Shown piece after piece: positions 2,351 through 40,936 of a DNA stretch of 64,000 nucleotides. Origin of the DNA: Escherichia coli (GTDB lineage Bacteria > Pseudomonadota > Gammaproteobacteria > Enterobacterales > Enterobacteriaceae); assembly GCF_029227855.1 (NCBI RefSeq), contig NZ_CP074356.1; one strand, 5' to 3'. The notes beneath the pieces are model-generated. The model was not told the DNA's origin and did no database searches. It worked only from the letters and a program-made list of their open reading frames with translations. How positions within the stretch are numbered: position 1 is the first letter of the stretch; the number at the start of each line of letters is the position of its first letter. A program made the translations under genes and the position numbers.

Positions 2351-2520
2351 GGGGTATAACCTGAAAATGAGTCCAATAGGGGGAAATCTCCACGGCGCTC
2401 ACTTTACCAGTTGGTGAGAATTATCCGAAGCTGAAGTTTGTAAATTCCTTCCACTGAATGCAACATTCACTCTATTTAAGAGAAATATCCACCAAATCCA
2501 TAAATTAAATAAATGATAAA

Positions 2521-2550
2521 CCCATAATTATTTCCTGTAATTATGGGTTT
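2521..2550 (-). terminator. Candidate Rho-independent terminator downstream of entF
   Basis: Perfect 10-bp inverted repeat cccataatta/taattatggg with 7-nt loop; on the minus strand it is followed by a T-rich run, about 20 bp past the entF stop. Confidence 0.45.
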
Positions 2551-2565
2551 ATCGATAATATTAAT

Positions 2566-6447: not shown

Positions 6448-6662
6448 TGTGCCTCCTGCAACTGGGTGAAATTCGCCGGTGTCAGAGTACGCCAGTGGGC
6501 TTCAAGCCACTGCTGGCAGGACGCCTGTGACTGCGGCTGACACACAACGACCCAGCCTGCCGGTAAGGCGCATTGTTGCGGCCACAGACTGAATTGCCCC
6601 TGCGCATTGCGCAAAATGTTAAACGCTCCCTGCGGATCATCGAAGGGATTACTGAATGCCAT
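6444..6662 (-). CDS. ybdZ: MbtH-like protein YbdZ
   Basis: 72-aa product MAFSNPFDDPQGAF...SLWPQ...; ATG at 6660-6662 (the ORF track begins two codons upstream at a TTG); 4-bp overlap with the entF start. Confidence 0.88.
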   Translation of the reverse strand: MAFSNPFDDPQGAFNILRNAQGQFSLWPQQCALPAGWVVVCQPQSQASCQQWLEAHWRTLTPANFTQLQEAQ

Positions 6663-6664
6663 AT

Positions 6665-7867: not shown

Positions 7868-7916
7868 ACCATAACCCCATGTTTACTGTGAAATTTTTCA
7901 TTGATTGCAGAAATAT

Positions 7917-7939
7917 ATTGATAATATTATTGATAACTA
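7917..7939. promoter_or_regulatory. Fur box-like site in the fes-fepA divergent promoter region
   Basis: attgataatattattgataacta contains GATAAT-type hexamer repeats resembling the Fur consensus; located between divergent iron-regulated genes. Confidence 0.55.
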
Positions 7940-8109
7940 TTTGCATTTGCAATAGCGTAATGGCGCGCCGTGGGAAGCGCGGACATTAATTAACCAACTG
8001 CACTGCGTGTCTTTCAGGATCAAAGGTTTTCGCGGTAGCGGGATGCGTCGTGTTGATGACGACCATGCCCGACAGTTGCAATTCGTGGCAAAAATGCAGG
8101 AATAAAACA

Positions 8110-11164: not shown

Positions 11165-11635
11165 TTCGCCCGCAGCCATTACTGACCGCGGGCGAAAGTG
11201 TAAAGCAGGTGCCTTACCATCCTGACCTGACAACCGGATATGCGGGGATTGCTCCCCGCACAACGGCTACTTCTTCGGTTCGTAAGCGAGAACAGCCTTA
11301 AACTCAATATTACGTTCCTTCACCGTAAACTCACACAGCGAGTCGCGGACCAGAAGCGTAAATCCCAGCACCGTTAAACACAGCACTATGACTGCCACAA
11401 GGGCATATTTCGTCAGCATGTTTATATTGCCTCCATGCGAAGAAGGGACTACCATCCGAGTTGTTCAGGTTTGGGTAGGTAGCCCCAGGGTTGATAGAAA
11501 TATCGTCCTGGGGCTTCATCTTTCCAGACCTCAGAGTTAACCTGAAACCGGAAAGCTTCAGGCACCCGCCGTTATCTTACCCTTCCTCAGCAAAATAGCT
11601 GTTTATTTATACAGTGAATCCTGTTTCGGACTTCT
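11165..11635. repeat. Tandem repeat unit 1 carrying a hok/sok-type type I toxin-antitoxin locus
   Basis: About 470 bp that realigns with 11670-12137 at roughly 95% identity by eye; contains hok copy 1. Confidence 0.85.
11267..11419 (-). CDS. hokE: Hok-family small membrane toxin (HokE-like), copy 1
   Basis: 50-aa product [50 protein letters not shown]; an overlapping mok-frame ORF is present (11331..11519). Confidence 0.85.
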
Positions 11636-11669
11636 GTTGGCAAAACTGATCATTGCCCTTAAAACGACA

Positions 11670-12137
11670 TCGCCCGCAGCCATTGCTGACCGCGGGCGAA
11701 AGTGTAAAGCAGGTGCCTTACCACCCTGACCTGACAACCGGATATGCGGGGATTACTCCCCGCACAACGGCTACTTCTTCGGTTCGTAAGCGAGAACAGC
11801 CTTAAACTCAATATTACGTTCCTTCACCGTAAACTCACACAGCGAGTCTCCGACCAGAAGCGTAAATCCCAGTACCGTCAAACACAGCACTATGACTGCC
11901 ACAAGGGCATATTTCGTCAGCATGTTTATATTGCCTCCATGCGAAGAAGGGACTACCATCCAAATTGTCTGGTTTGGAGTGGCAGCCCCAGGGTTGATAG
12001 AAATATCTCCTGGGGCTTCATCTTTCCAGACCTCAGAGTAAACCTGAAACCGGAAAGCTTCAGGCACCCGCCGTTATCTTACCCTTCCTCAGCAAAATGG
12101 CTGTTTATTTATACAGTGAGTCCTGTTTCGGACTTCT
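11670..12137. repeat. Tandem repeat unit 2 carrying a second hok/sok-type locus
   Basis: Direct repeat of 11165-11635 with scattered substitutions. Confidence 0.85.
11771..11923 (-). CDS. Hok-family small membrane toxin, copy 2
   Basis: 50-aa product identical to copy 1 except G for R at the LLV(G/R)DSL position. Confidence 0.8.
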
Positions 12138-14229: not shown

Positions 14230-14322
14230 AGCGGAAATCTATAGCGCATTTTTCTCGCTTACCATTTCTCGTTGAACCTTGTAATCTGCTGGCACGCAAA
14301 ATTACTTTCACATGGAGTCTTT

Positions 14323-14976
14323 ATGGATATCATTTCTGTCGCCTTAAAGCGTCATTCCACTAAGGCATTTGATGCCAGCAAAAAACTTACCCCGGAACAG
14401 GCCGAGCAGATCAAAACGCTACTGCAATACAGCCCATCCAGCACTAACTCCCAGCCGTGGCATTTTATTGTTGCCAGCACGGAAGAAGGTAAAGCGCGTG
14501 TTGCCAAATCCGCTGCCGGTAATTACGTGTTCAACGAGCGTAAAATACTTGATGCCTCGCACGTCGTGGTGTTCTGTGCAAAAACCGCGATGGACGATGC
14601 CTGGCTGAAGCTGGTTGTTGACCAGGAAGATGCCGATGGCCGCTTTGCCACGCCGGAAGCGAAAGCCGCGAACGATAAAGGTCGCAAGTTCTTCGCCGAT
14701 ATACACCGTAAAGATCTGCATGATGATGCGCAGTGGATGGCAAAACAGGTTTATCTCAACGTCGGTAACTTCCTGCTCGGCGTGGCGGCGCTGGGTCTGG
14801 ACGCGGTGCCCATCGAAGGTTTTGACGCCGCCATCCTCGATGCAGAATTTGGTCTGAAAGAGAAAGGCTACACCAGTCTGGTGGTTGTTCCGGTAGGTCA
14901 TCACAGCGTTGAAGATTTTAACGCTACGCTGCCGAAATCTCGTCTGCCGCAAAACATCACCTTAACCGAAGTGTAA
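14323..14976 (+). CDS. nfsB: Oxygen-insensitive NAD(P)H nitroreductase NfsB
   Basis: 217-aa product [31 protein letters not shown]... Confidence 0.95.
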
Positions 14977-16442: not shown

Positions 16443-16901
16443 TTACTTACGGCCCGTAAACGGGCTGCCCGGATAGGGAATCGATAACTGCTCTCCCATT
16501 TTATCCTCTTCAAGCTGGTGCTTTATGTAATCCTGTATCTTCGCCGTGTTCTTACCCACTGTATCGACGTAGTACCCTCTGCACCAGAACTCCCTGTTCC
16601 TGTATTTGAATTTCAAATCACCAAACTGCTCGTAAAGCATCAGACTGCTTTTCCCTTTCAGATATCCCATAAACCCGGATACGCTCATTTTGGGCGGGAT
16701 CTCCACAAGCATATGGATATGATCTGCACAGCATTCAGCTTCCAGAATCCGTACGCTTTTCCACTCACACAGCTTTCTCAAAATACTGCCTATTGCTCTA
16801 CGCTTCTCTCTGTAGAACACCTGTCTTCGGTATTTTGGCGCAAAAACTATGTGATATTTACAGTTCCATCGGGTGTGCGCTAAGCTCTTTTCGTTCCCCA
16901 T
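16443..16901 (-). CDS. tnpA: IS200 transposase TnpA (HUH Y1 transposase)
   Basis: Product MGNEKSLAHTRWNCKYHIVFAPKYRRQVFY...HIHMLVEIPPKMSVS...; HxH motif and catalytic Tyr context. Confidence 0.9.
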   Translation of the reverse strand: MGNEKSLAHTRWNCKYHIVFAPKYRRQVFYREKRRAIGSILRKLCEWKSVRILEAECCADHIHMLVEIPPKMSVSGFMGYLKGKSSLMLYEQFGDLKFKYRNREFWCRGYYVDTVGKNTAKIQDYIKHQLEEDKMGEQLSIPYPGSPFTGRK

Positions 16902-17043
16902 TGGGACCCCCTTTTGATTTCTTGTTTGACACTTGCAGTTGCCAGACCGCAAAGTGTTTTAACAAATCAAAAGGGGTTTTAATAACTGGCTCAAAGCTGA
17001 AAGCTTTCCGGAACCCCCAGCCTAGCTGGGGGTTTTCTGTGCA

Positions 17044-27734: not shown

Positions 27735-29636
27735 ATGTCAACCGGATTACGTTTCACACTGGAAGTGGACGGCCTGCCGCCGGATGCTTTTGCGGTGGTT
27801 TCCTTTCATCTGAACCAGTCACTCTCTTCGCTCTTTTCCCTCGATCTCTCCCTGGTCAGCCAGCAGTTTCTCTCCCTTGAATTTGCGCAGGTGCTGGACA
27901 AAATGGCCTACCTGACGATATGGCAGGGCGATGAAGTACAGCGCCGGGTGAAAGGCGTGGTGACCTGGTTTGAACTCGGGGAGAACGACAAAAACCAGAT
28001 GCTGTACAGCATGAAGGTGCACCCGCCGCTGTGGCGTGCCGGTCTGCGCCAGAACTTCCGTATCTTCCAGAACGAGGACATCAAAAGCATCCTCGGCACG
28101 ATGTTGCAGGAAAACGGGGTGACCGAATGGAGTCCGCTGTTCAGCGAGCCGCATCCTTCCCGTGAGTTTTGTGTCCAGTACGGTGAGACTGATTACGATT
28201 TCCTGTGCCGGATGGCGGCGGAGGAAGGCATCTTCTTTTATGAGGAGCATGCTTACAAAAGTACCGACCAGAGCCTGGTGCTGTGCGACACAGTCCGCCA
28301 TCTGCCCGAATCTTTTGAAATCCCATGGAACCCGAACACCCGTACCGAGGTGAGCACCCTCTGCATCAGCCAGTTCCGCTACAGCGCACAAATCCGCCCT
28401 TCTTCCGTGGTGACCAAAGACTACACCTTTAAACGCCCCGGCTGGGCCGGACGTTTTGAACAGGAAGGCCAGCACCAGGACTACCAGCGCACGCAGTATG
28501 AAGTGTATGACTACCCCGGACGTTTCAAGGGTGCCCACGGGCAGAACTTTGCCCGCTGGCAGATGGACGGCTGGCGAAACAATGCAGAAACCGCGCGGGG
28601 AATGAGTCGCTCGCCGGAGATATGGCCGGGACGACGAATTGTGCTGACGGGGCATCCGCAGGCGAACCTGAACCGGGAATGGCAGGTGGTGGCAAGTGAA
28701 CTGCACGGCGAACAGCCACAGGCGGTGCCAGGACGGCAGGGAGCGGGGACGGCGCTGGAGAACCATTTTGCGGTGATCCCGGCAGACAGAACATGGCGAC
28801 CACAGCCGTTGCTGAAACCGCTGGTCGACGGCCCGCAGAGCGCTGTCGTGACAGGACCGGCAGGCGAGGAAATCTTCTGCGACGAACATGGTCGCGTGCG
28901 GGTGAAGTTCAACTGGGACCGCTATAACCCGTCAAACCAGGACAGTTCGTGCTGGATCCGTGTGGCACAGGCGTGGGCAGGCACCGGTTTTGGCCACCTG
29001 GCGATACCGCGTGTGGGTCAGGAGGTGATTGTAGACTTCCTCAACGGCGATCCGGACCAGCCGATCATTATGGGGCGCACCTACCACCAGGAAAACCGCA
29101 CCCCCGGCAGCCTGCCGGGAACAAAGACGCAGATGACCATCCGCTCCAAAACGTACATGGGCAGCGGATTTAATGAGCTGAAGTTTGATGATGCGACAGG
29201 GAGAGAACAGGTCTACATCCACGCGCAGAAGAACATGGATACCGAAGTGCTCAACGACCGTACCACCACCGTAAAACACGATCACCACGAAACCGTAAAA
29301 AATGACCAGACGGTCACGATCCAGGAAGGTAACCGCCTTCTTACGGTGGAAAAAGGCCACAAGATCACCGGAGTACTGAAAGGGTCTTTATCTGAGGATG
29401 TCTTTCAGGACAGAGGCACGATTGCCGGTTCGGTGCATGTTGACGCTGTAAACAATGGTGGCGAAGGCGACGGTATACAGGCTTATACGGCGATTAAGGA
29501 AATTTTGCTGGCCGTGGAGGAAAGCAAAATTGCGCTGACGCCGGATGGCATTCAGCTACAGGTCGGGGAATCGACGGTAATCAGGCTGTCGAAGGATGGC
29601 ATCACCATCGTGGGCGGTTCTGTTTTCATCAACTGA
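27735..29636 (+). CDS. vgrG: Type VI secretion spike protein VgrG (Rhs-element Vgr protein)
   Basis: 633-aa ORF MSTGLRFTLEVDGLPPDAFAVVSFHLNQSLSSLFSLDLSL...; gp27/gp5-like organisation, immediately upstream of Eag/PAAR-Rhs genes. Confidence 0.88.
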   Translation: MSTGLRFTLEVDGLPPDAFAVVSFHLNQSLSSLFSLDLSLVSQQFLSLEFAQVLDKMAYLTIWQGDEVQRRVKGVVTWFELGENDKNQMLYSMKVHPPLWRAGLRQNFRIFQNEDIKSILGTMLQENGVTEWSPLFSEPHPSREFCVQYGETDYDFLCRMAAEEGIFFYEEHAYKSTDQSLVLCDTVRHLPESFEIPWNPNTRTEVSTLCISQFRYSAQIRPSSVVTKDYTFKRPGWAGRFEQEGQHQDYQRTQYEVYDYPGRFKGAHGQNFARWQMDGWRNNAETARGMSRSPEIWPGRRIVLTGHPQANLNREWQVVASELHGEQPQAVPGRQGAGTALENHFAVIPADRTWRPQPLLKPLVDGPQSAVVTGPAGEEIFCDEHGRVRVKFNWDRYNPSNQDSSCWIRVAQAWAGTGFGHLAIPRVGQEVIVDFLNGDPDQPIIMGRTYHQENRTPGSLPGTKTQMTIRSKTYMGSGFNELKFDDATGREQVYIHAQKNMDTEVLNDRTTTVKHDHHETVKNDQTVTIQEGNRLLTVEKGHKITGVLKGSLSEDVFQDRGTIAGSVHVDAVNNGGEGDGIQAYTAIKEILLAVEESKIALTPDGIQLQVGESTVIRLSKDGITIVGGSVFIN

Positions 29637-29663: not shown

Positions 29664-30125
29664 ATGCAGTTCACTTTTAATGAAGGCCACATTCAACTGC
29701 CGTCTCAATGGCAGGATCAGTCAATGCAGGTCCTGGTGTCCACAGATAACAGTGGCATCAACCTGGTCATTACCCGCGAAGCCGTTCCACAGGGAACCCT
29801 GACACCAGAGCTGTACCAGGAAACGCTGGCGCTGTACCAGGGCAAACTTGATGGGTACACCGAACATGCCTGCCGGGAAATCACTCTGGCAGAGGCCCCG
29901 GCCTGGCTGCTGGATTATTCCTGGAACGGTCCGGAAGATGAGGGGAATCAGGGGCGGATTAGCCAGATAGCCGTATTCCAGCGGCGTGGAGATACGCTGC
30001 TGACCTTCACTTTCAGCACCTCCTTATCCCTGAAGAACAGTCAAAAGACGATGCTGCTGGAGGTGATAAAGAGCTTCACCCCGTTGCCACCGGAGAATGA
30101 CATCCAAAAGGACCAGCCGCGCTGA
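29664..30125 (+). CDS. DUF1795/Eag-family T6SS effector chaperone (EagR-like)
   Basis: 153-aa ORF placed between vgrG and a prePAAR-Rhs gene, the canonical position of Eag chaperones; assignment from context and overall similarity, no HMM run. Confidence 0.7.
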   Translation: MQFTFNEGHIQLPSQWQDQSMQVLVSTDNSGINLVITREAVPQGTLTPELYQETLALYQGKLDGYTEHACREITLAEAPAWLLDYSWNGPEDEGNQGRISQIAVFQRRGDTLLTFTFSTSLSLKNSQKTMLLEVIKSFTPLPPENDIQKDQPR

Positions 30126-30144: not shown

Positions 30145-33100
30145 ATGAGTGAAGGACCAGGCGGGCCACAGGGAGCGACCGCAGGCGGTACGCTGGCAAT
30201 GCGAATGCTGTCACAGCAGGCGATGGTCGCCAGCCAGATGAAACGGGCAGCCAACGACAAAGCCATTGCACAGATGCTGGCATCAAAAAAGTCCGGCCCC
30301 CCCGCCGCCAGGCTGGGCGATGAAATTCAGCACAAGAGTTTTTTGGGGGCGCTGGCAGGGGCCGTGCTGGGGGCGATAGTGACCATCGCAGAAGGTTGCC
30401 TGATTATGGCCGCCTGTGCCACCGGCCCTTATGCGCTGGTTCTGGTGCCTGCGCTGATGTATGCCAGCTATAAGGCGAGTGATTATGTGGAGGAGAAACA
30501 GAACCAGCTTGAATCATGGATAAACAGCTTTTGTGACACGGACGGCGCCATCAATACCGGTTCTGAAAATGTAAACATTAACGGAAAGCCCGCTGCCAGG
30601 GCCGCCGTCACCCTTCCCCCTCCTCCCCCACCTGGAGCAATACCTGAAATCCCACAGGGGGAACCCTCATGGGGTGATATTGCCACTGACCTGCTTGAAT
30701 CGGCAGCGGAAAAAGCAGTACCACTGGCGAAGGCCTGGGGGAACGCTGTTATCACCCTGACGGACAGCAATGCCGGTTTTATGGATCGCGTCAGCGCCGG
30801 CGCATCGCTTCTGTTTCCCGCCGGTCCGGTATTAATGGAGTTTGCCACCATGGTGGGCGGGCGTGGCGAAATCAAAAAAGATGTGGATTTCCCGGAAGCC
30901 GGTGAGGACACGGCGCTCTGCGACAAGGAGAACAAACCACCGAGGATAGCCCAGGGCAGCAGCAACGTCTTTATCAACAATCAGCCCGCCGCGCGCAAGG
31001 GCGACAAACTGGAGTGCAGCGCGGCAATCGTGGAAGGTTCGCCGGACGTCTTTATTGGCGGTGAACAGGTGACCTATCTGGATATCCAGCCAGAGTTCCC
31101 GCCGTGGCAGAGAATGATCCTGGGGGGAATAACGATAGCCAGCTATCTTCTGCCGCCAGCGGGACTGCTGGGAAAACTGAAGAATCTGGCGAGACTCGGC
31201 AAACTGGGGAACCTGCTGGGGAAAAGCGGGAAGCTGCTGGGGGCAAAGCTCGGCGCGTTGCTGGGAAAAACAGATAAGTCGTTAAAAAGTATTGCCAATA
31301 AAGTCATCAGATGGGTAACAGATCCTGTCGATCCGGTAACCGGCGCGTACTGCGACGAACGTACCGACTTTACGCTGGGCCAGACCCTCCCCCTCTCCTT
31401 CACCCGTTTCCACAGTTCTGTACTGCCGCTGCATGGCCTGACCGGCGTGGGCTGGAGCGACTCCTGGAGCGAATACGCCTGGGTGCGTGAACAGGGAAAC
31501 CGGGTGGATATCATCAGCCAGGGAGCCACGCTGAACTTCGCCTTCGACGGTGACAGTGATACGGCGGTTAACCCGTATCACGCCCAGTACATTCTGCGCC
31601 GCCGCGATGATTATCTGGAGCTGTTCGACAGGGATGCACTGAGCAGCCGCTTCTTTTATGACGCCTTTCCGGGAATGCGTCTGCGCCACCCGGTGACTGA
31701 CGATACCAGCGATGACCGCCTGGCACACAGCCCCAATGACCGGATGTACATGCTGGGCGGGATGAGCGACACCGCCAGCAACCGCATCACGTTTGAGCGC
31801 GACAGCCAGTACCGGATCACAGGTGTCAGTCACACCGACGGGATCCGGCTTAAACTGACGTACCACGCCAGCGGCTACCTGAAAGCCATTCACCGCACGG
31901 ATAACGGCATACAGACGCTGGCGACCTACGAACAGGATGCGCGGGGGCGGCTGACAGAAGCGGATGCGCGGCTGGACTACCACCTGTTTTATGAGTACGA
32001 CGCTGCGGACCGGATCATCCGCTGGTCCGATAACGACCAGACGTGGAGCCGTTTCACCTACGATGAACAGGGCCGGTGCGTGAATGTCACCGGGGCGGAG
32101 GGCTATTACAACGCCACGCTGGACTATGGTGACGGCTGCACCACCGTGACGGACGGCAAGGGCATTCACCGTTATTACTATGATCCTGACGGCAATATTC
32201 TGCGGGAAGCAGCGCCGGACGGCAGCACCACCACGTATGAATGGGATGAATTCCATCACCTGCTGGCCCGTCACTCCCCTGCCGGGCGGGTGGAGAAATT
32301 TGAATACAACGCCGCACACGGTCAGTTAAGCCGTTACACGGCGGCAGACGGCGCGGAGTGGCAGTACCGCTATGATGAGCGCGGCCTGCTCAGCAACATC
32401 ACCGACCCTGCCGGGCAGACGTGGACACAGCAGTGTGATGAACGCGGCCTGCCGGTAAGTCTGGTGTCGCCACAGGGCGAAGAGACCCGGCTGGCATACA
32501 CCGCTCAGGGGCTGCTGTCGGGAATATTCCGCCAGGATGAACGGCGTCTGGGCATAGAGTACGACCACCACAACCGGCCGGAAACACTCACCGACGTGAT
32601 GGGCCGTGAACACCACACCGAATACAGCGGTCACGACCTGCCGGTGAAGATGCGCGGCCCCGGCGGTCAGTCAGTGCGGTTGCAGTGGCAGCAGCACCAT
32701 AAACTGAGTGGCCTTGAGCGCACTGGCACCGGCGCGGAAGGGTTCAGCTATGACCGCCACGGCAACCTGCTGGCCTGGACGGACGGCAATGGTGTTGTCT
32801 GGACAATGGAGTACGGCCCGTTCGATTTGCCGGTGGCGCGAACGGACGGTGAAGGCCACCGCTGGCAGTACCGCTATGATAAAGACACGCTGCAACTGAC
32901 AGAAGTCATTAACCCGCAGGGTGAGTCATATCTTTATGTTCTGGATAACTGCGGCCGGGTGACGGAAGAGCATGACTGGGGCGGCGTGGTCTGGCGTTAC
33001 CGCTATGACGCCGATGGCCTGTGTACCGCCAGGGTCAACGGCCTGGAGGAAACCATCCTCTACAGCCGGGACGACGCAGGCCGCCTGGCAGAAGTCATCA

Positions 33101-34974
33101 CGCCGGAAGGCAAAACGCAGTATGCGTATGACAAATCCGGCAGGCTGACGGGTATCTTCAGCCCGGACGGCACATCACAGCGCACCGGCTATGACGAACG
33201 CGGGCGGGTGAATGTCACCACTCAGGGCCGACGGGCCATTGAATACCACTACCCCGATGAACACACCGTCATCCGCTGTATCCTGCCACCGGAAGATGAA
33301 CGCGACAGACACCCCGGTGAATCCCTGCTGAAAACCACGTACCGCTACAACGCAGCCGGAGAACTGGCAGAGGTCATCCTGCCGGAGGATGAGACGCTGA
33401 CGTTCAGCCGTGATGAGGCAGGACGTGAAGTGCTCCGGCACAGTAACCGGGGTTTTGCCTGTGAGCAGGGCTGGAATGCAGCCGGTCAGCTTACCAGCCA
33501 GCGCGCCGGACTTTTCCCGGCAGAAGCCACATGGGGCGGGCTGCTCCCCTCACTGGTACGGGAGTACCGTTACGACAGCGCGGGCAATGTGTCGGCTGTC
33601 ACCAGCCGGGAAGATTACGGACGGGAAACTCGCCGGGAGTACCGGCTGGACCGGAACGGCCAGGTCACGGCGGTGACAGCCTCAGGCACCGGGCTGGGCT
33701 ATGGCGAAGGCGATGAGTCCTATGGCTATGACAGTTGTGGCTACCTGAAGGCGCAGTCTGCGGGCAGGCACCGGATAAGTGAAGAGACTGAGCGGTATGC
33801 CGGAGGCCACCGGCTGAAACAGGCCGGAAACACGCAGTATGACTATGACGCCGCAGGCCGGATGGTCAGCCGCACCAGACACCGTAACGGCTATCGCCCG
33901 GAAACAGAGCGGTTCCGGTGGGACAGCCGGGACCAGCTGACCGGGTATTGCAGCGCACAGGGTGAACAGTGGGAATACCGCCACGACGCCAGCGGCAGAC
34001 GGACGGAAAAACGCTGCGACCGGAAGAAAATCCGCTTCACGTACCTGTGGGACGGCGACAGTATTGCGGAAATCCGGGAATACCGCGATGATAAACTGTA
34101 CAGCGTAAGGCACCTGGTGTTTAACGGCTTTGAGCTGATAAGCCAGCAGTTTAGCCGGGTACGGCAGCCGCACCCGTCCGTGGCCCCGCAGTGGGTGACG
34201 CGGACGAATCATGCGGTGAGCGATCTGACGGGCCGTCCGCTGATGCTCTTTAACAGTGAAGGTAAAACCGTCTGGCGACCGGGACAGACCAGCCTGTGGG
34301 GGCTGGCACTCAGCCTGCCCGCGGACACCGGCTACCCGGACCCGCGCGGGGAACTGGACGCGGAAGCCGACCCCGGCCTGCTGTATGCAGGACAGTGGCA
34401 GGATGCGGAATCCGGGCTGTGCTATAACCGGTTCCGGTATTACGAGCCGGAAACAGGGATGTACCTGGTGAGTGATCCGCTGGGGTTGCTGGGGGGTGAG
34501 CAGACTTACCGGTATGTGCCGAATCCGTGTGGGTATGTTGATCCTTTGGGATTAGCAACATGTCCCATAATCAGACAACGGGTGCTGGCTAACCTTGAAG
34601 CCAGTCGGGCAGCAAGGGCTGCATCTAATTTTGGTAAGAAAAATATCTATGATTTTATCAAGGCAACTCAATCTGCTATCCCTGGCACCTCTATCCCAAA
34701 ATCTTTTGAGATTATAACTGCTAATGGTACTTTCTGGGTACACCCAAATGCTACAAAACATATGGCTGAATATTTGACTCGGAACGGTCTCTCACATTCA
34801 ACTTCTGTAGAGAGCCAAATAATGTTAACAAGTTTTCACGAAGCTGTAAGTTTGGCTAGTGCTCAAGGTATAAAGTATGAAGAAATGATGAATGTTGGCG
34901 GCTGGGAACTAGTATTTAGTCAAGCTAAATCTGACTCGGCTTTATCAGTTATTAAACATGCTCTTTATAAATGA
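30145..34974 (+). CDS. prePAAR/PAAR-domain Rhs polymorphic toxin (T6SS effector) with variable C-terminal toxin domain
   Basis: 1609 aa; prePAAR motif AARLGDEIQH near the N-terminus with hydrophobic helices; PAAR-like segment (GDKLECSAAIVEGSPDVFIGGE); many YD/RHS repeats; PxxxxDPxGL core-end motif (NPCGYVDPLGL) followed by about 150 aa of divergent C-terminus. Confidence 0.9.
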   Translation: MSEGPGGPQGATAGGTLAMRMLSQQAMVASQMKRAANDKAIAQMLASKKSGPPAARLGDEIQHKSFLGALAGAVLGAIVTIAEGCLIMAACATGPYALVLVPALMYASYKASDYVEEKQNQLESWINSFCDTDGAINTGSENVNINGKPAARAAVTLPPPPPPGAIPEIPQGEPSWGDIATDLLESAAEKAVPLAKAWGNAVITLTDSNAGFMDRVSAGASLLFPAGPVLMEFATMVGGRGEIKKDVDFPEAGEDTALCDKENKPPRIAQGSSNVFINNQPAARKGDKLECSAAIVEGSPDVFIGGEQVTYLDIQPEFPPWQRMILGGITIASYLLPPAGLLGKLKNLARLGKLGNLLGKSGKLLGAKLGALLGKTDKSLKSIANKVIRWVTDPVDPVTGAYCDERTDFTLGQTLPLSFTRFHSSVLPLHGLTGVGWSDSWSEYAWVREQGNRVDIISQGATLNFAFDGDSDTAVNPYHAQYILRRRDDYLELFDRDALSSRFFYDAFPGMRLRHPVTDDTSDDRLAHSPNDRMYMLGGMSDTASNRITFERDSQYRITGVSHTDGIRLKLTYHASGYLKAIHRTDNGIQTLATYEQDARGRLTEADARLDYHLFYEYDAADRIIRWSDNDQTWSRFTYDEQGRCVNVTGAEGYYNATLDYGDGCTTVTDGKGIHRYYYDPDGNILREAAPDGSTTTYEWDEFHHLLARHSPAGRVEKFEYNAAHGQLSRYTAADGAEWQYRYDERGLLSNITDPAGQTWTQQCDERGLPVSLVSPQGEETRLAYTAQGLLSGIFRQDERRLGIEYDHHNRPETLTDVMGREHHTEYSGHDLPVKMRGPGGQSVRLQWQQHHKLSGLERTGTGAEGFSYDRHGNLLAWTDGNGVVWTMEYGPFDLPVARTDGEGHRWQYRYDKDTLQLTEVINPQGESYLYVLDNCGRVTEEHDWGGVVWRYRYDADGLCTARVNGLEETILYSRDDAGRLAEVITPEGKTQYAYDKSGRLTGIFSPDGTSQRTGYDERGRVNVTTQGRRAIEYHYPDEHTVIRCILPPEDERDRHPGESLLKTTYRYNAAGELAEVILPEDETLTFSRDEAGREVLRHSNRGFACEQGWNAAGQLTSQRAGLFPAEATWGGLLPSLVREYRYDSAGNVSAVTSREDYGRETRREYRLDRNGQVTAVTASGTGLGYGEGDESYGYDSCGYLKAQSAGRHRISEETERYAGGHRLKQAGNTQYDYDAAGRMVSRTRHRNGYRPETERFRWDSRDQLTGYCSAQGEQWEYRHDASGRRTEKRCDRKKIRFTYLWDGDSIAEIREYRDDKLYSVRHLVFNGFELISQQFSRVRQPHPSVAPQWVTRTNHAVSDLTGRPLMLFNSEGKTVWRPGQTSLWGLALSLPADTGYPDPRGELDAEADPGLLYAGQWQDAESGLCYNRFRYYEPETGMYLVSDPLGLLGGEQTYRYVPNPCGYVDPLGLATCPIIRQRVLANLEASRAARAASNFGKKNIYDFIKATQSAIPGTSIPKSFEIITANGTFWVHPNATKHMAEYLTRNGLSHSTSVESQIMLTSFHEAVSLASAQGIKYEEMMNVGGWELVFSQAKSDSALSVIKHALYK

Positions 34975-35504
34975 CGATTATGCTTACATTAGAAAATGAA
35001 ACAAACTACAAAGATGTTGTTGTTAATATAGATGAATTTGTACCTTTTGATATAACTTTTGGAAAGGGGAGCGAACAGTGTTTGTACTGGAGAGGCGGCA
35101 ATGGTAAAAGTTCTTTGGTTGAAGTTGGGTTAAATATGTACAGCGGAGAAGTAAGTAACATCACACTAGCAAATATCGATTCAGGTGAAATTAACATTAC
35201 AGATGAGATGTTAGCCAACAACCTTCCTGAAATACAAGGGTCTGTTATATTTCAGACAAGCGAGTGGCTTAATAAAGACATTTCCGAATACTCAAACAGA
35301 TTTATTGATGATTTTGATTGCAATATCAAGTTAATAATTGGTAGTAATTACATTAAATTATTATTTAAAAAAGCAACAAATCCCATTTGTTATATCATTA
35401 ATAGGAATATAAGATTTGGTTTTTCTTTGAGTAGGGAACTTTCGACATTGGAAATATTAGACCTCAATCAAGAAAAATTAGATATTCTAAAGTTATTTAA
35501 ATAG
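34971..35504 (+). CDS. Putative cognate immunity protein for the Rhs C-terminal toxin
   Basis: 177-aa ORF whose ATG overlaps the rhs stop (ATGA); markedly AT-rich; position typical of rhsI genes. Confidence 0.7.
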   Translation: MTIMLTLENETNYKDVVVNIDEFVPFDITFGKGSEQCLYWRGGNGKSSLVEVGLNMYSGEVSNITLANIDSGEINITDEMLANNLPEIQGSVIFQTSEWLNKDISEYSNRFIDDFDCNIKLIIGSNYIKLLFKKATNPICYIINRNIRFGFSLSRELSTLEILDLNQEKLDILKLFK

Positions 35505-35983
35505 TTTTAGTGTTTGAAACTTACCGAGAGATGATAGCTATGAATGAATACAAAAACATCCATCTTGGAGGAAACAATGGAATGTTAATCCATTAAAAAA
35601 CATACTTCAATATCTTTAGTGAAGAAAGAGTTGTATGAAAGAAATATATCTTATGTGAGCGACATGATGCATGCTAATTATATTATTGGCCGGAAATTTT
35701 ATGATGATAGCAAAAAGGAGGGGTTATTTCTGTAAGAATGGATATACCCGCAGGGTTTGAACCAGACATTTATTTGTTGAAGTCTAAGATCCAAATGGAA
35801 GCATTTATATCCCTCAGATATTATGCGTTGACGGGTTGATAAAGATACTTTTAGAGGGTTAATAAATGGAGAACGTATAATAAATCTCTTAAACAAACTA
35901 TAACCTGTACTAATGAAAAAAATGGGAATAGATAAGTTAATAGCCTATTCTAAAAATGGTAAAGTGGTTTTACTTCCAAAATA

Positions 35984-36427
35984 ATGGAGTTTAGTATGAA
36001 AATCGAAGCTAATTCCCTTACTCATCCCTATGACTACAACGCCTCACTGAACAATTATTTACATTATTTTGAGAATTTCTCTCGTAATGACTGGAATAAA
36101 GATTCATGTGGAGGATATTTTACTTTTAGAGATGATGACAGAGAGTGTGTTTTGTTTTTTGTGAATTATGGTGATAATTTTTCATTGCGCTATGATTGTA
36201 CACAAAGTTCTGATGGAATAGTGTCATGCTGGTATAGTAACCATGAAGATGATAAAATGAATATCATCGTCGATGCTGATACAGAACAATTTATCCCTTT
36301 AGGTTCTTGCTTACCTCCTGATATTACTTTATCAGTAATAAAAGATTTTTTCAAAAATCCTTTAGAGAAATCAAAAAAAGTAAAATGGATGAATGCAGAT
36401 GACATTGACTGGTCATCTGTGTATTAA
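35984..36427 (+). CDS. Hypothetical protein, possible orphan immunity gene
   Basis: 147-aa ORF in AT-rich DNA downstream of the toxin/immunity pair; no recognisable motif. Confidence 0.4.
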   Translation: MEFSMKIEANSLTHPYDYNASLNNYLHYFENFSRNDWNKDSCGGYFTFRDDDRECVLFFVNYGDNFSLRYDCTQSSDGIVSCWYSNHEDDKMNIIVDADTEQFIPLGSCLPPDITLSVIKDFFKNPLEKSKKVKWMNADDIDWSSVY

Positions 36428-37318
36428 AGTTGGATTGGATAATTATCTGTTTCAAAAATCATTAAATTTAGAACCTATCTGTTCAACAGAGCTGCCTTGA
36501 ACAGCAGGTTCTTTTATGATGTCCAGGAGCGAATATGCCTGTGATGTCTGGCACTCAGCATCTGACTGACCTGGACTACTGATCCTACTCACACAGGGAG
36601 CTAGACCTGGAAGCAACCTACTGTAAGCAGTGCAGTAGCAGCCCACCTCACATCAGTCCTTGCAAGGTGTGGGCCTTTGTGATCTTGCTCTGTATTGCTG
36701 AGATCCTCAGGAAGGACTCGAAATTTAATCAGGAAGGCCGTTGCTAAAAATCAAAAAATAAATTCAAGAGCAATTTCTAAAACTTTTGAATCTACTGTAT
36801 CGGATGAGGTTTTCACTCCTTTCCAAAAGGTGAGTTTTCAAGCATTCAAGTTTCTGTTATGACCAAAACTTCACCATTTAACACTAATCCGAGTATTATG
36901 TTACCATGAAGAAAAAAGATATTAGATTTGCAATATCCATTAACTCCAACTCAAGTAAGATAGAATTAATGGAAAAATTAAAAACATAATCCCAGGGCTT
37001 ATTGAAATAACTCCCAGTGCATTAAGAGAAGAAAAAACATGGTAGTTATTGAAGATAATGATCTTTATGACTCTATAAAAGCAGAGGGAGTTGATGGATG
37101 GATGTATTATAAATTCATATTATCCATATTCCCATTAAAGGGAGTAGACACAACATTAGAATATCAACGGAAATTATCTTTTCTTTTCTTAAAGAAATTA
37201 AAAGATGCGGGTCTGTTAGGTGAACTTATATGCGAGGATGATTTTCATGACTGATGACCTCTACATATATCCTCAGTTCGTGGCTGGTATTACATGATCT
37301 GACAGGGAAAGATCGTAG

Positions 37319-37613
37319 CGAAATCAAAAAAGACGTGGATTTCCCGGAAGCCGGTGAAGACACGGCGCTCTGCGACAAGGAGACTAAACCGCCGAGGATA
37401 GCCCAGGGCAGCAGCAACGTTTTTATCAACAATCAGCCTGCCGCACGCCAGGGAGACAAACTGGAGTGCAGTGCGGCGATCGTGGAAGGTTCGCCGGACG
37501 TCTTTATTGGGGGTGAGCAGGTCACCTATCTGGATATCCAGCCGGAGTTCCCGCCGTGGCAGAGAATGATCCTGGGGGGAATAACGATAGCCAGCTATCT
37601 TCTGCCGCCAGCG
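37319..37613 (+). pseudogene. Duplicated fragment of the Rhs PAAR-domain region
   Basis: 295 bp nearly identical to 30867-31161 of the full-length rhs gene; encodes EIKKDVDFPEAGEDTALCDK...ITIASYLLPPA inside ORF 37254..37631; lacks the N-terminus and core. Confidence 0.85.
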
Positions 37614-37750
37614 CAGGGAAAGATCACGTAACGCTGCTTTTTTGTACTAAATAATTCGCACTAAATGTTCAATAATTGAGATATTCCTTATTACCTAAAT
37701 ACAGTTCCACCAAGATTACCTAAACCCAAATGAGGTAAAAGATAGTGGGT

Positions 37751-38112
37751 ATGAATAAAAATGAAATCCATTTCCCTATAGGATATGGTTGGTTGAATGA
37801 AAAAAAATTATTGGCACCAGTGAATTTAGCCAATTAGAACCATGGTTTTATCTAGATGAGAACAGGTGTTTTTTTGCGAATAAAAAATGGCCAAATGTCA
37901 TAGGTGAACAATTATTCGCTTTTGCTAAACGTCAAGATAATGATGAATTGGCTTGTTTCAAAATTAATGAATCTGGAGTCTGTGAGGGTGTTTATTTAAT
38001 TAATGGGTGGACTCCTAACGGGTTTGATATTATACAATTTTACCCTGATTTTTGGGAATGGGTACATTTGGTTATACAAGATGTCTCGGAGTGGATTGAT
38101 AATAAAGGATAA
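37751..38112 (+). pseudogene. Frameshifted small gene (immunity-protein-like) with an A8 tract at the frame switch
   Basis: ATG at 37751 reads 27 codons to a stop; a shifted frame from about 37813 continues for 99 codons to TAA at 38110-38112; the shift coincides with gaaaaaaaatt at 37798-37808. Confidence 0.45.
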
Positions 38113-38141
38113 TTTGAAACAAAAGTAAAAAACCGCCTTCA

Positions 38142-38840
38142 TTGAAGGTAACGTGGAGTGGTGGGCGGAGCAGCCTGCCCGCAGACACAGACTACCCGGA
38201 CCCGCGCGGGGAGCGGGACGCGGAAGCCGACCCCGGCCTGCTGTATGCAGGACAGTGGCAGGATGCGGAATCCGGACTGTGCTATAACCGGTTCCGGTAT
38301 TACGAGCCGGAAACCGGGATGTACCTGGTGAGTGATCCCCTGGGGTTGCTGGGGGGTGAGCAGACTTACCGGTATGTGCCTAATCCTAGTGGGTATGTTG
38401 ATCCTCTGGGATTAGCAACGTGTCCTATACTCAGACAGTGGGCGCTGACTAACCTTGAAGCCAGTCGGGCAGCAAGGGCTGCATCTAATTTTGGTAAGCC
38501 TCTGGTCCAGCGAAATAAAACGATTGGCGATAAAGTAAGGGATATGATTGCCAAAGAGAGGGGAACCACTCTAATTGAACAAAATTATAGAGTGACAGGA
38601 GGATTAAAGCGTATTGACGTTGTTGATGGAGTAACGGGTATAGAATCTAAAGTCGATCGAACAGGGTTAACAACCCGAGTACGGCAAGAGGTAGCGCGGG
38701 ATATTAAGATTTTGAGAAGTGAGCAACTTGATCAAATTGAATGGGTGTTTACAAGAAGTTCAACTACAGGGAAGATTGGGCCAACTAAACCACTTGAAGA
38801 TCTTTTAAATAAACATGGTATACCGATTATTTATCGATAA
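38142..38840 (+). CDS. Orphan Rhs C-terminal fragment: core end (DPxGL) plus alternative C-terminal toxin domain, candidate PD-(D/E)xK nuclease
   Basis: 38171-38498 nearly identical to 34311-34638 of the full rhs; the C-terminal domain diverges after ...AASNFGK; contains RIDVVDG...GIESK; the ORF begins at TTG and has no PAAR or core of its own. Confidence 0.7.
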   Translation: MKVTWSGGRSSLPADTDYPDPRGERDAEADPGLLYAGQWQDAESGLCYNRFRYYEPETGMYLVSDPLGLLGGEQTYRYVPNPSGYVDPLGLATCPILRQWALTNLEASRAARAASNFGKPLVQRNKTIGDKVRDMIAKERGTTLIEQNYRVTGGLKRIDVVDGVTGIESKVDRTGLTTRVRQEVARDIKILRSEQLDQIEWVFTRSSTTGKIGPTKPLEDLLNKHGIPIIYR

Positions 38841-38851
38841 GGAGTGATAGT

Positions 38852-39409
38852 GTGAAACTCAAACCGATTGGTGACTTTTTAAACAAAAATGGGTTTATAA
38901 AAAATGGTAACAATGATTTTTATAAAGTTCATGATAAGTTTGTAAATTGTATAAATTTTCAAAAAAAGAGTACAGGTGATATTTTTTTTATAAACACAGG
39001 TGTTCATCCTGTGTTCGAAAATTTTTGCAATGAACCACCGAAAAAAGAAATAGATTGTTACATCCGTAACCGTGTGTGTGATGGACTAAGTATATCTTTG
39101 CTGCATTCTTTTGAAGGTAGTGAGTTTGTTATCAGTGAGATAAAAAACAAAGCGTTTTGTTTTTTTGAATACTTTGATTCATTGAATAAAATATTCGATG
39201 CTATTCGTGTTGTAGATATTGAAGAGAGAAATATTTGCGATGAGCTAAGTGGTGTAAGCAGCGTAAGATTAGCTTTGATGTGTATGAACTACCAGTATGA
39301 GAAAAAAAAATTTAGCCTTGTTTCTGATTTTGCGAACTATGGTCTTGCTATATCTAGAGGCCCGGTACCGAAAAAAGCATTTAAGGATATGATAAAAATA
39401 ACAGAGTGA
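38852..39409 (+). CDS. Putative immunity protein for the orphan Rhs C-terminal toxin
   Basis: 185-aa AT-rich ORF with GTG start 11 bp after the orphan toxin stop and GGAG upstream. Confidence 0.6.
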   Translation: MKLKPIGDFLNKNGFIKNGNNDFYKVHDKFVNCINFQKKSTGDIFFINTGVHPVFENFCNEPPKKEIDCYIRNRVCDGLSISLLHSFEGSEFVISEIKNKAFCFFEYFDSLNKIFDAIRVVDIEERNICDELSGVSSVRLALMCMNYQYEKKKFSLVSDFANYGLAISRGPVPKKAFKDMIKITE

Positions 39410-39434
39410 TACCTAATCCGGTGTAATACTTGCT

Positions 39435-39646
39435 GCCTGTGTACCGCGAAGATTAACGGCCGGGAGGAAACTATTCTCTACAACCGGGACGCCACAGGCC
39501 GCCTGGCAGAAGTCATCACGCCGGAAGGCAAAACGCAGTATGCGTATGACAAATCCGGCAGGCTGACGGGTATCTTCAGCCCGGACGACACATCACAGCG
39601 CACCGGCTATGAAGAACGCGGGCGGGTGAATGTCACCACTCAGGGC
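39435..39646 (+). pseudogene. Internal Rhs core fragment
   Basis: About 210 bp at roughly 90% identity to 33018-33228 of the full-length rhs; truncated at both ends, abutting the ISAs1 left end. Confidence 0.8.
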
Positions 39647-40936
39647 AGGGAAAGATCATCCAAAGTACACTTTTTGTACTAAATAATTCGCATTTTATGT
39701 TTAAAAATGGAGATATTCCTCATTACCTAAAGCTGTTTTTTATTGCTTATACATGATCAAATACTCCTTACATAATTAAGGAGAACAAAATGGAACTTAA
39801 AAAATTGATGGAACATATTTCTATTATCCCCGATTACAGACAAGCCTGGAAAGTGGAACATAAATTATCGGATATTCTGCTGTTGACTATTTGTGCCGTT
39901 ATTTCGGGTGCAGAAGGCTGGGAAGATATAGAGGATTTTGGGGAAACACATCTCGATTTTTTGAAGCAATATGGTGATTTTGATAATGGTATTCCTGTTC
40001 ACGATACCATCGCCAGAGTTATATCCTGTATCAGTCCTTCAAAATTTCACGAGTGTTTTATTAACTGGATGCGAGATTGCCATACTTCAGATGATAAAGA
40101 CGTCATCGCAATTGATGGAAAAACACTCCGGCATTCTTATGACAAGAGTCGCCGCAAGGGAGCGATTCATGTCATTAGTGCGTTCTCAACAATGCACAGT
40201 CTGGTCATCGGACAGATCAGGACGGATGAGAAATCCAATGAAATTACAGCTATCCCTGAACTTCTTAACATGCTGGATATTAAAGGAAAAATCATCACAA
40301 CTGATGCGATGGGTTGCCAGAAAGATATTGCAGAGAAGATACAAAAACAGGGCGGTGATTATTTATTCGCTGTAAAAGGAAACCAGGGGCGGCTAAATAA
40401 AGCCTTCGAGGAAAAATTTCCGCTGAAAGAATTAAATAATCCAGAGCATGACAGTTACGCCATTAGTGAAAAGAGTCACGGCAGAGAAGAAATCCGTCTT
40501 CATATTGTTTGCGATGTCCCTGATGAACTTATTGATTTCACGTTTGAATGGAAAGGACTGAAGAAATTATGCGTGGCAGTCTCTTTTCGGTCAATAATAG
40601 CAGAACAAAAGAAAGAGCCAGAAATGACGGTCAGATATTATATCAGTTCTGCTGATTTAACCGCAGAGAAGTTCGCCACAGCAATCCGAAACCACTGGCG
40701 CGTGGAGAATAAGCTGCACTGGCGTCTGGACGTGGTAATGAATGAAGACGACTGCAAAATAAGAAGAGGAAACGCCGCAGAATTATTTTCAGGGATACGG
40801 CACATCGCTATTAATATTTTAACGAATGATAAGGTATTCAAGGCAGGGTTAAGACGTAAGATGCGAAAAGCAGCCATGGACAGAAACTATCTCGCGTCAG
40901 TCCTTGCGGGGAGCGGGCTTTCGTAATCTTGCCCTG
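39646..40936 (+). mobile_element. ISAs1-family insertion sequence (H-repeat element), about 1.29 kb
   Basis: Imperfect terminal inverted repeats CAGGGAAAGATCA (39646-39658) and TAATCTTGCCCTG (40924-40936); single transposase ORF; inserted in rhs-derived sequence. Confidence 0.75.
39790..40926 (+). CDS. ISAs1-family transposase (H-repeat-associated protein, YhhI/YdcC-like)
   Basis: 378-aa [55 protein letters not shown]...; the stop codon lies inside the right inverted repeat. Confidence 0.88.

What the first reader, a model, noticed from the sequence alone, without database searches (positions are those of the whole stretch)
37319..37613. Stand-alone duplicated PAAR-domain fragment
A 295-bp copy of rhs positions 30867-31161 with only a few substitutions sits 2.3 kb downstream of the full gene, inside a 125-aa ORF (37254..37631) that would encode an isolated PAAR-like segment without the prePAAR N-terminus or Rhs core. 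It is either a rearrangement scar or a remnant of a second PAAR-Rhs gene, and is a substrate for homologous recombination with the intact gene.
Basis: seen in the sequence. Interest (0 to 1): 0.45.

Follow-up and report, generated by a model that had tools for sequence, protein, structure and literature searches.

The report
Dead-end stub of orphan rhs gene
The duplicated PAAR-coding piece is real, but it is an ordinary, already-annotated pseudogene: the first 300 bp of a decapitated spare copy of an E. coli Rhs toxin gene, cut off on both sides by insertion-sequence ends and still able to recombine with the working gene.

Summary
Window 37314-37613 is an ungapped 300-bp direct repeat of rhs 30862-31161, with 17 substitutions (94.3% identity). 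It lies in frame inside the ORF 37254-37631.

The window is E. coli, at the known Rhs site between cusS and nfrB. RefSeq already annotates exactly this interval as a partial PAAR pseudogene.

Comparison with other genomes shows what it is. The left junction is a 12-nt ISAs1/H-rpt left end fused to rhs codon 240. It occurs in 139 of 5,426 complete genomes. In some of them it opens a nearly full-length, N-terminally truncated orphan rhs of 3.8-4.1 kb.

In the window's lineage (about 110 genomes) this orphan stops at rhs nt 1017. There it meets the exact terminus of a second, truncated ISAs1 copy.

The stub covers only part of a split PAAR domain. It lacks prePAAR and scores below the family cut-off, so it is very unlikely to work as a protein.

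It does behave as a recombination substrate. One genome (isolate 362) carries exactly the junction predicted for a crossover between the two copies. The stub also shows clustered differences, suggestive of gene conversion, between otherwise near-identical islands.

Verdict: ordinary Rhs-array debris, low interest, already known in kind.

The parts
27735..29636 (+). vgrG (T6SS spike protein), first gene of the island.
   Evidence: ORF; RefSeq annotation of the identical locus.
29664..30125 (+). DcrB-related protein, the presumed Eag-type chaperone of the Rhs effector.
   Evidence: RefSeq name. No NCBIfam hit. The chaperone role is inferred from its position and from PMC7773334.
30145..34974 (+). 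Main rhs gene (1609 aa): prePAAR at aa 54-100, PAAR-motif hits at aa 132-153 and 266-310, DUF6531 from aa 393.
30862..31161 (+). Parental copy of the repeat (rhs nt 718-1017, codons 240-339).
34971..35504 (+). Presumed immunity gene of the main Rhs toxin. It would be lost in a crossover between the two repeats.
   Evidence: ORF; position directly after rhs. The immunity role is inferred.
35984..36427 (+). Orphan ORF. In strains O114:H49 and AH01 it directly follows the main rhs, so it is a displaced former immunity gene.
36647..36692 (+). 46-bp remnant of an ISAs1 right end. It matches positions 1246-1291 of the 1291-bp element at 78% identity. The terminal 12-mer matches 11 of 12 in L004 and L005.
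37039..37254 (+). Small orphan ORF (71 aa here, 116 aa in O121) lying between the two IS-end remnants.
37303..37314 (+). Solo 12-nt ISAs1 left terminus (CAGGGAAAGATC) fused to rhs codon 240. This is the left junction of the orphan. Base 37314 is shared with the rhs homology.
   Evidence: The junction is present in 139 of 5,426 genomes.
37314..37613 (+). The finding: 300-bp 5' stub of the N-truncated orphan rhs, annotated by RefSeq as a partial PAAR pseudogene.
37254..37631 (+). 125-aa ORF spanning the stub: 20 unrelated codons, then rhs codons 240-339, then QGKIT and a stop inside the IS end.
37614..37706 (+). Truncated left end (about 93 bp) of a second ISAs1/H-rpt copy. Its exact terminus abuts rhs nt 1017.
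37751..38113 (+). Orphan ORF (120 aa in L003 and L008). It is frameshifted in the window, which has A8 where they have A9.
   Evidence: No Pfam domain.
38142..38840 (+). Classical orphan rhs C-terminal tip. Bases 38171-38498 are 94% identical to 34311-34638, including the DPxGL end of the core, followed by a distinct tip.
38852..39409 (+). DUF4304 protein, the presumed immunity gene of the orphan tip.
39435..39646 (+). Mid-core rhs fragment (copy of 33017-33228) that abuts the left end of the intact IS.
39646..40936 (+). Intact 1291-bp ISAs1-family element (H-rpt/ISEc1 type). Its transposase is at 39790-40926. The terminal inverted repeats are CAGGGAAAGATCAT... and CAGGGCAAGATTAC...
   Evidence: (NF033564, 417 bits).

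Best explanation
The fragment is a non-functional leftover, not a gene. An N-terminally truncated spare ('orphan') copy of the prePAAR-Rhs effector gene lies downstream of the working copy in the cusS-nfrB Rhs island.

Left boundary: the orphan starts at rhs codon 240, where rhs sequence is fused to the first 12 nt of an ISAs1 (H-rpt) left end. This junction is shown. How it arose is inferred: either an illegitimate deletion from inside an IS into a second rhs copy, or the single novel joint of a tandem duplication.

Right boundary: in the window's lineage everything beyond rhs nt 1017 of that orphan is gone. The break coincides exactly with the terminus of another ISAs1 copy, of which only about 93 bp remain. 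This is shown. That it arose by IS insertion or IS-adjacent deletion is inferred.

Protein: the remaining 300 bp encode the middle of a split PAAR domain. Without prePAAR, transmembrane region, Rhs cage or toxin, the 125-aa ORF product should not fold or bind VgrG. This is inferred from family knowledge.

Recombination: the stub's only activity is as a 300-bp, 94%-identical direct repeat 6,452 bp from its parent. Homologous recombination with the main gene gives gene-conversion patches. A crossover gives loss of the Rhs core, toxin and immunity gene, leaving a truncated prePAAR-TMD-PAAR gene.
For: Repeat and frame. Of the 16 codons that differ, 13 are synonymous and 3 are not. The copy therefore diverged as part of a functional gene and did not decay in place.

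Organism, locus and existing annotation. RefSeq describes it as a pseudogene, 'missing N-terminus and C-terminus'.

Left junction:
- It is single-copy in 139 of 5,426 genomes.
- The same junction leads into 4.1-kb and 3.8-kb N-truncated rhs orphans in O114:H49 and AH01. In one search, 3,688 bp of the O114:H49 orphan are collinear with the main rhs at 96%.
- In O121 it leads into a 654-bp remnant with an internal deletion.

Right junction:
- Every other copy continues ...CCAGCG|GGACTGCTGGG, whereas the window has ...CCAGCG|CAGGGAAAGATCACG.
- The stub is 92-95% identical to the left ends of full ISAs1 copies at other Rhs loci.

IS identity: transposase NF033564 at 417 bits; inverted repeats; a further right-end remnant at 36647-36692.

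IS left ends at this locus abut rhs at nt 1017, about 1604, about 1906 and about 3084. The right end next to nfrB is constant.

Incomplete PAAR: 35 bits against a 124-bit cut-off, second half of the profile only. prePAAR lies at aa 54-100 of the main protein. Split PAAR domains need prePAAR for folding and VgrG binding (PMC7773334).

Recombination:
- The constructed deletion junction is matched end to end by isolate 362.
- The island flanks of isolate 362 differ from the window at 2 of 3,760 bp and 3 of 2,000 bp, yet the repeat differs at 9-11 of 300 (Poisson P about 1e-11).
- Window versus L003: 6 differences in the stub against a 0.1% background (P about 8e-7).
- Alleles are shared reticulately between main and orphan copies.

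Precedent: main/orphan rhs recombination over 522 bp at 95% identity in Salmonella (PMC3967940).
Against: - No expression data exist. An ATG-initiated in-frame ORF overlapping the stop of the upstream ORF (TGATG) is present, so a small product cannot be excluded.
- The direction of the isolate-362 event (deletion product or precursor) cannot be resolved. Its repeat is a fine mosaic, closest to the O114 orphan allele (4 differences), and is not a simple chimera of the window's two copies.
- The events that created the 12-nt left junction and that removed most of the second IS are inferred, not observed.
- No genome with a full IS at either position was found.
- H-rpt transposition has reportedly never been observed in E. 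coli (PMC3032704).
Confidence: 0.8

Rival explanations
1. Reverse history. The IS end first truncated the main rhs gene at nt 1017, giving the isolate-362 arrangement. The window arrangement arose later, when a donor segment was imported by recombination. That segment carried vgrG, a full rhs, the immunity gene, the orphan ORFs, the 12-nt junction and the start of the donor's orphan. Its right-hand crossover fell inside the 300-bp PAAR homology. On this reading the 3' part of the stub is the old end of a truncated main gene, not of an orphan.
For: - Isolate 362 exists, and its island flanks are near-identical to the window's.
- The stub and the isolate-362 copy are identical over the last 135 bp but differ at 9 sites in the first 165 bp. 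That pattern fits a crossover inside the repeat.
- The IS-stub module is never found with any other left-hand context.
Against: - Only 1 genome has this arrangement, against about 109 with the window arrangement. Clonal sampling weakens this argument.
- The island's left part is 99.95% identical between the window and isolate 362. On this model, donor and recipient would have had to be near-identical already.
- The final structure and the present-day function are the same under either history.
Confidence: 0.25
2. The 125-aa ORF encodes a functional small PAAR-like protein, for example an alternative spike cap or a regulator that competes for VgrG.
For: - There is an open, in-frame ORF with an ATG overlapping the preceding stop codon.
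- Most substitutions relative to the main copy are synonymous.
- RefSeq labels the segment 'PAAR domain-containing'.
Against: - It scores far below the PAAR family cut-off and covers only part of the domain.
- It lacks the prePAAR motif needed to complete split PAAR domains.
- The synonymous bias is explained by divergence while the sequence was part of a full gene.
- In other strains the same reading frame runs on into a long pseudogene, so the 125-aa end point is an accident of the IS junction.
- There is no promoter signal above chance.
Confidence: 0.03
3. Assembly artefact or chance similarity.
For: None found.
Against: - Self-BLAST E is about 1e-130.
- The arrangement is present in about 110 independent complete genomes with both junctions intact.
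Confidence: 0.01

Closest known systems
Rhs orphan modules, also called 'C-terminal tips' (partial core plus variable tip plus immunity gene, downstream of a full rhs). Sources: PMC3150448; PMC3967940; summarised for E. coli, including the b0570-b0569 (cusS-nfrB) site, in PMC3032704.
   Same: It lies downstream of a full-length rhs and in the same orientation. It shares about 94-95% identical sequence with that gene. It sits in an array with displaced immunity genes. It can recombine with the main gene.
   Different: The homology lies in the N-terminal PAAR-coding region (codons 240-339), not at the end of the core. No toxin tip or immunity gene is attached. A crossover therefore truncates the effector instead of swapping its toxin. 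It is a remnant of an unusually long orphan (codon 240 to the end) and is not itself an orphan tip.
H-rpt/ISAs1-family elements (ISEc1) associated with E. coli Rhs elements. The classical descriptions by Hill and co-workers are recalled from memory. PMC3032704 notes H-rpt next to C-terminal tips.
   Same: An ISAs1 transposase gene with inverted repeats beginning CAGGG sits at the distal end of the Rhs array. Defective copies lie between rhs fragments, and IS ends abut rhs core fragments.
   Different: Here the remnants are reduced to 12, 46 and 93 bp, and they form both boundaries of a PAAR-coding fragment. The intact copy has no flanking target-site duplication.
prePAAR effectors encoded as two ORFs: prePAAR-TMD-PAAR, plus a separate Rhs protein (mentioned in PMC7773334).
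   Same: The crossover product seen in isolate 362 would encode only prePAAR-TMD-PAAR (339 aa plus 5).
   Different: In isolate 362 no Rhs-cage ORF follows, and RefSeq calls the gene a C-terminally truncated pseudogene.

Membership tests
PAAR-domain protein (T6SS spike tip; NF033420 / PF05488) | A complete PAAR domain scoring above the curated family threshold. | tested here: not met
   The 125-aa ORF scores 35.1 bits against a cut-off of 124. It matches only profile positions 53-94 of 94.
PAAR-domain protein (T6SS spike tip; NF033420 / PF05488) | For split-PAAR effectors: the prePAAR motif (AARxxDxxxH) that completes the fold and enables VgrG binding. | tested here: not met
   The motif (AARLGDEIQH) lies at about aa 54-63 of the main Rhs. 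The fragment starts at codon 240. The requirement is taken from PMC7773334.
PAAR-domain protein (T6SS spike tip; NF033420 / PF05488) | The protein is expressed and binds VgrG. | not testable with these tools
   Only a consensus promoter scan was possible, and it found nothing above the shuffled expectation.
Rhs orphan toxin/immunity module | Located downstream of a full-length rhs, in the same orientation, and sharing a recombinogenic stretch of homology. | tested here: met
   A 300-bp direct repeat at 94.3% identity, 6,452 bp downstream.
Rhs orphan toxin/immunity module | Carries the end of the core (PxxxxDPxGL), a distinct C-terminal toxin tip and a cognate immunity gene. | tested here: not met
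   The fragment ends at codon 339 against an IS terminus. The neighbouring module at 38142-39409 does meet this feature.
ISAs1-family insertion sequence (the flanking ends) | A transposase matching the ISAs1 model. | tested here: met
   The ORF at 39790-40926 scores 416.8 bits against NF033564 (cut-off 70). This applies to the intact copy only.
ISAs1-family insertion sequence (the flanking ends) | Terminal inverted repeats, with the boundary sequences matching them. | tested here: met
   The left repeat (CAGGGAAAGATCATCCAAAG) and right repeat (CAGGGCAAGATTACGAAAGC) match at about 15 of 20 positions. Exact 12-mers occur at 37303 and 37614. There are 12 matches with up to 2 mismatches in the window, against 4.25 expected.
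ISAs1-family insertion sequence (the flanking ends) | A direct target-site duplication flanking a simple insertion. | tested here: not met
   The flanks of the intact copy are ...cactcaggg| and |cgttaaccg, with no duplication. This is consistent with rearrangement or adjacent deletion after insertion.

The most novel reading that the evidence does not exclude
ISAs1/H-rpt left ends may be active builders of Rhs arrays and not just passive debris. Very short solo left ends (12-15 nt) and exact-terminus junctions recur at the borders of rhs pieces. They could mark transposase-mediated joining or deletion events. Those events would create N-proximal recombination 'handles' such as this PAAR stub. 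Such handles would let a cell eject or replace the whole Rhs cage, toxin and immunity cassette in one crossover, as opposed to swapping only the C-terminal tip.
Probability: 0.1. Interest if true: 0.45.

Novelty: already known. Interest (0 to 1): 0.18.

Why it matters
It matters mainly as housekeeping.
- The segment labelled 'PAAR domain-containing protein' should not be counted as a PAAR spike protein in T6SS inventories.
- A 300-bp, 94% direct repeat 6.4 kb from its parent can confuse short-read assemblies.

For Rhs biology it gives a clean natural example of two points. Homology left behind in an orphan array can delete an entire effector/immunity cassette as well as swap toxin tips. And ISAs1/H-rpt ends delimit the pieces of such arrays. 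Neither point changes current understanding.

Tried and rejected
1. Target-site mimicry. Both IS left-end junctions in the window follow a CAG(G/C)G pentamer, suggesting insertion next to sequences that resemble the IS end. Five other junctions (L002, L005, L006, L007, L009) lack it, so this was rejected.

2. Direction of the isolate-362 event from SNPs. The hybrid copy is a fine mosaic, and alleles are shared reticulately between main and orphan copies. The question stays undecidable.

3. A pre-junction state, meaning the 610-bp segment next to a full IS, or the PAAR end next to a full IS. None was found among 5,426 genomes. All 139 left-junction hits include the rhs side, and no intermediate class appeared in the sampled ranking.

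4. Toxin, immunity and ORF domains. Pfam and NCBIfam found nothing for the main tip, the orphan tip, the 120-aa ORF or the immunity candidates.

5. Structured RNAs in 35400-39800. Rfam found none at E up to 0.1.

6. Promoters for the 125-aa ORF. The scan found nothing above the shuffled expectation.

7. Microhomology at the junctions. Only 1 nt is shared, so it is uninformative.

Full report
**Observation.** Window 37314-37613 is an ungapped 300-bp direct repeat of 30862-31161 inside the 1609-aa rhs gene (30145-34974). It has 17 substitutions, giving 94.3% identity and a self-BLAST E of about 1e-130. The ORF 37254-37631 (125 aa) exists and reads the repeat in the rhs frame. Two further rhs-derived repeats lie downstream. 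Bases 38171-38498 copy the end of the core (34311-34638), and 39435-39646 copy a mid-core piece (33017-33228). Both are about 94% identical.

**Where this is.** The window is an E. coli chromosome, 100% identical to strain JNEC-KY178. The island lies between cusS and nfrB. This is a recognised Rhs site (b0570-b0569) known to carry 'C-terminal tips' (PMC3032704). Gene order is:
- vgrG (27735-29636)
- a DcrB-related gene, the presumed Eag chaperone (29664-30125)
- rhs
- the presumed immunity gene (34971-35504)
- the orphan array
- an ISAs1 element (39646-40936)
- nfrB

RefSeq/PGAP already annotates exactly 37314-37613 as a pseudogene: 'PAAR domain-containing protein; incomplete; missing N-terminus and C-terminus'.

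**What the fragment encodes.** It covers rhs codons 240-339. In the main protein, Pfam places prePAAR at aa 54-100, PAAR-motif hits at aa 132-153 and 266-310, and DUF6531 from aa 393. The 125-aa ORF matches the NCBIfam PAAR model at 35 bits against a curated cut-off of 124, and only over profile positions 53-94 of 94. PAAR domains of prePAAR effectors are 'split' and need the prePAAR motif to fold and to bind VgrG (PMC7773334). The stub should therefore be inert as a protein; this is an inference. Of the 16 codons that differ from the main copy, 13 are synonymous. The copy thus diverged while part of a working gene and did not decay in place.

**Boundaries.** Both ends of the fragment touch the 12-mer CAGGGAAAGATC, at 37303-37314 and 37614-37625. 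A third copy at 39646 is the left terminus of a 1,291-bp element. That element's right terminus (40925-40936, CAGGGCAAGATT on the minus strand) is its inverted partner, and its 378-aa ORF is an ISAs1-family transposase (NF033564, 417 bits).

- Right boundary. Bases 37614-37706 are a truncated IS left end. It is 82% identical to the resident copy but 92-95% identical to the left ends of ISAs1 copies at other Rhs loci. Every other copy of this rhs region continues ...CCAGCG|GGACTGCTGGG, where the window has ...CCAGCG|CAGGGAAAGATCACG. The right boundary is therefore an exact IS terminus.
- Left boundary. Only the first 12 nt of an IS left end remain, fused to rhs nt 718.
- Further upstream. A 46-bp remnant of an IS right end lies at 36647-36692.

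The orphan array is thus a patchwork delimited by at least four ISAs1 ends.

**Ancestry from other genomes.** The left junction (upstream ORF, 12-mer, rhs codon 240) is single-copy in 139 of 5,426 complete E. coli genomes. It lay in the cusS-nfrB island in every locus inspected.
- In O114:H49 strain 90-9280 and in strain AH01 it opens N-terminally truncated rhs orphans of 4.1 and 3.8 kb. In the O114:H49 strain, 3,688 bp are collinear with the window's main rhs at 96%.
- In O121 the orphan runs 654 bp into DUF6531, then has an internal deletion that joins it to the end of the core and a different tip.
- About 109 genomes have the window's version, and the IS-stub junction occurs in 110.

The window's fragment is therefore the 5' stub of a long N-truncated orphan. 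In this lineage the body of that orphan has been replaced at an IS end.

At this locus the IS left end abuts rhs at nt 1017, about 1604 (AH01), about 1906 (STEC711 class) and about 3084 (window). The IS right end next to nfrB is constant. The intact IS also lacks a target-site duplication. This pattern suggests IS-associated adjacent deletions. That is an inference, because H-rpt transposition has reportedly not been observed in E. coli.

**Recombination.** I built the junction expected from a crossover between the two copies: rhs 30600-31161 followed by 37614-37900. One genome matches it end to end in a single piece, NZ_OW967178.1 (isolate 362). Its locus reads vgrG, chaperone, a 1,017-bp 'PAAR domain-containing protein, missing C-terminus', then the IS stub, followed by the same downstream array.

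Against the window, its cus backbone is 2-5% diverged. The island parts are nearly identical: 2 differences in 3,760 bp upstream of the repeat and 3 in 2,000 bp downstream. The 300-bp repeat itself differs at 11 sites from the main copy and at 9 sites from the stub. All 9 of the latter lie in the first 165 bp (Poisson P about 1e-11). Relatedness therefore breaks inside the repeat.

The isolate-362 copy is a fine mosaic, closest to the O114 orphan allele. I therefore cannot tell whether isolate 362 is the deletion product or a precursor.

Independently, the window and L003 share the arrangement and have near-identical flanks (7 differences in 7,000 bp). They nonetheless differ at 6 sites in the stub (P about 8e-7). 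Alleles of this segment are also shared reticulately between main and orphan copies. Both facts fit gene conversion.

The Salmonella precedent is recombination between main and orphan rhs over 522 bp at 95% identity, which deletes the main immunity gene (PMC3967940). Here a crossover would remove the Rhs core, toxin, immunity gene and two orphan ORFs (6,452 bp). It would leave prePAAR-TMD-PAAR plus five codons. Loss of immunity should be counter-selected where sibling cells fire the toxin (inference).

**Comparison with what is known, and novelty.** The fragment works like the homology patch of an Rhs orphan, but it fails the defining features of an orphan toxin module: it has no core end, no toxin tip and no immunity gene. 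It also fails those of a PAAR protein. Rhs arrays with displaced tips, core fragments and H-rpt/ISAs1 copies are long known, and the feature is already annotated as a pseudogene. The only mildly unusual aspects are the N-proximal position of the retained homology and the IS ends on both sides.

**Verdict.** The biology is ordinary, so interest is low.

Noticed in passing
L002 (E. coli O121 GTVSS-020) 14230-14704: A second very short solo ISAs1 left end (15 nt, CAGGGAAAGATCACG) is followed directly by GTGTG... and a 5' fragment of a group II intron (RF01999 D1-D4, 93 bits, at 14314-14431). The full ISEc1 starts at 14705. This suggests an intron inserted into the IS left end. Short left-end stubs of 12-15 nt therefore recur at junctions in this island.
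   Followed up: partly
window 30200-34200 compared with L003: Two strains with the same island arrangement and near-identical flanks differ by 3-5% across the main rhs core (15-28 differences per 500 bp). The main gene has therefore been overwritten by recombination between close relatives.
   Followed up: partly
window 37751-38113: The orphan 120-aa ORF (WP_001038643.1 in L003 and L008) is frameshifted in the window by a poly-A run of 8 where they have 9. Its ATG lies 138 nt from the IS-stub terminus, close to the transposase ATG offset (145 nt) in the intact IS. The stub could therefore supply upstream signals; a weak promoter-like site lies at 37676-37705.
   Followed up: partly
L009 (STEC711) 6546-8453, and at least six other genomes with the same hit pattern: Here the main rhs is cut at about nt 1906 directly by the left end of the ISEc1 next to nfrB, and the whole orphan array is absent. 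This is another IS-bounded truncation of the same effector.
   Followed up: partly
window 11166-12137: A tandem duplication (about 470 bp, 96% identical) of a hokE/sok type I toxin-antitoxin locus next to entD, with two hokE CDSs and two Rfam sok hits.
   Followed up: no
window 16443-17034: An IS200C transposase gene with an adjacent STnc490 Hfq-binding sRNA hit (145 bits), between ybdG and pheP.
   Followed up: no
window 36693-37302: A 610-bp segment carrying a small ORF is bracketed by an IS right-end remnant on its left and an IS left-end 12-mer on its right, as if it once lay between two ISAs1 copies. Its origin is unexplained.
   Followed up: partly
L002 2535-4148: In O121 the vgrG gene of this island is frameshifted and truncated. 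The effector module is probably already disabled in that lineage.
   Followed up: no
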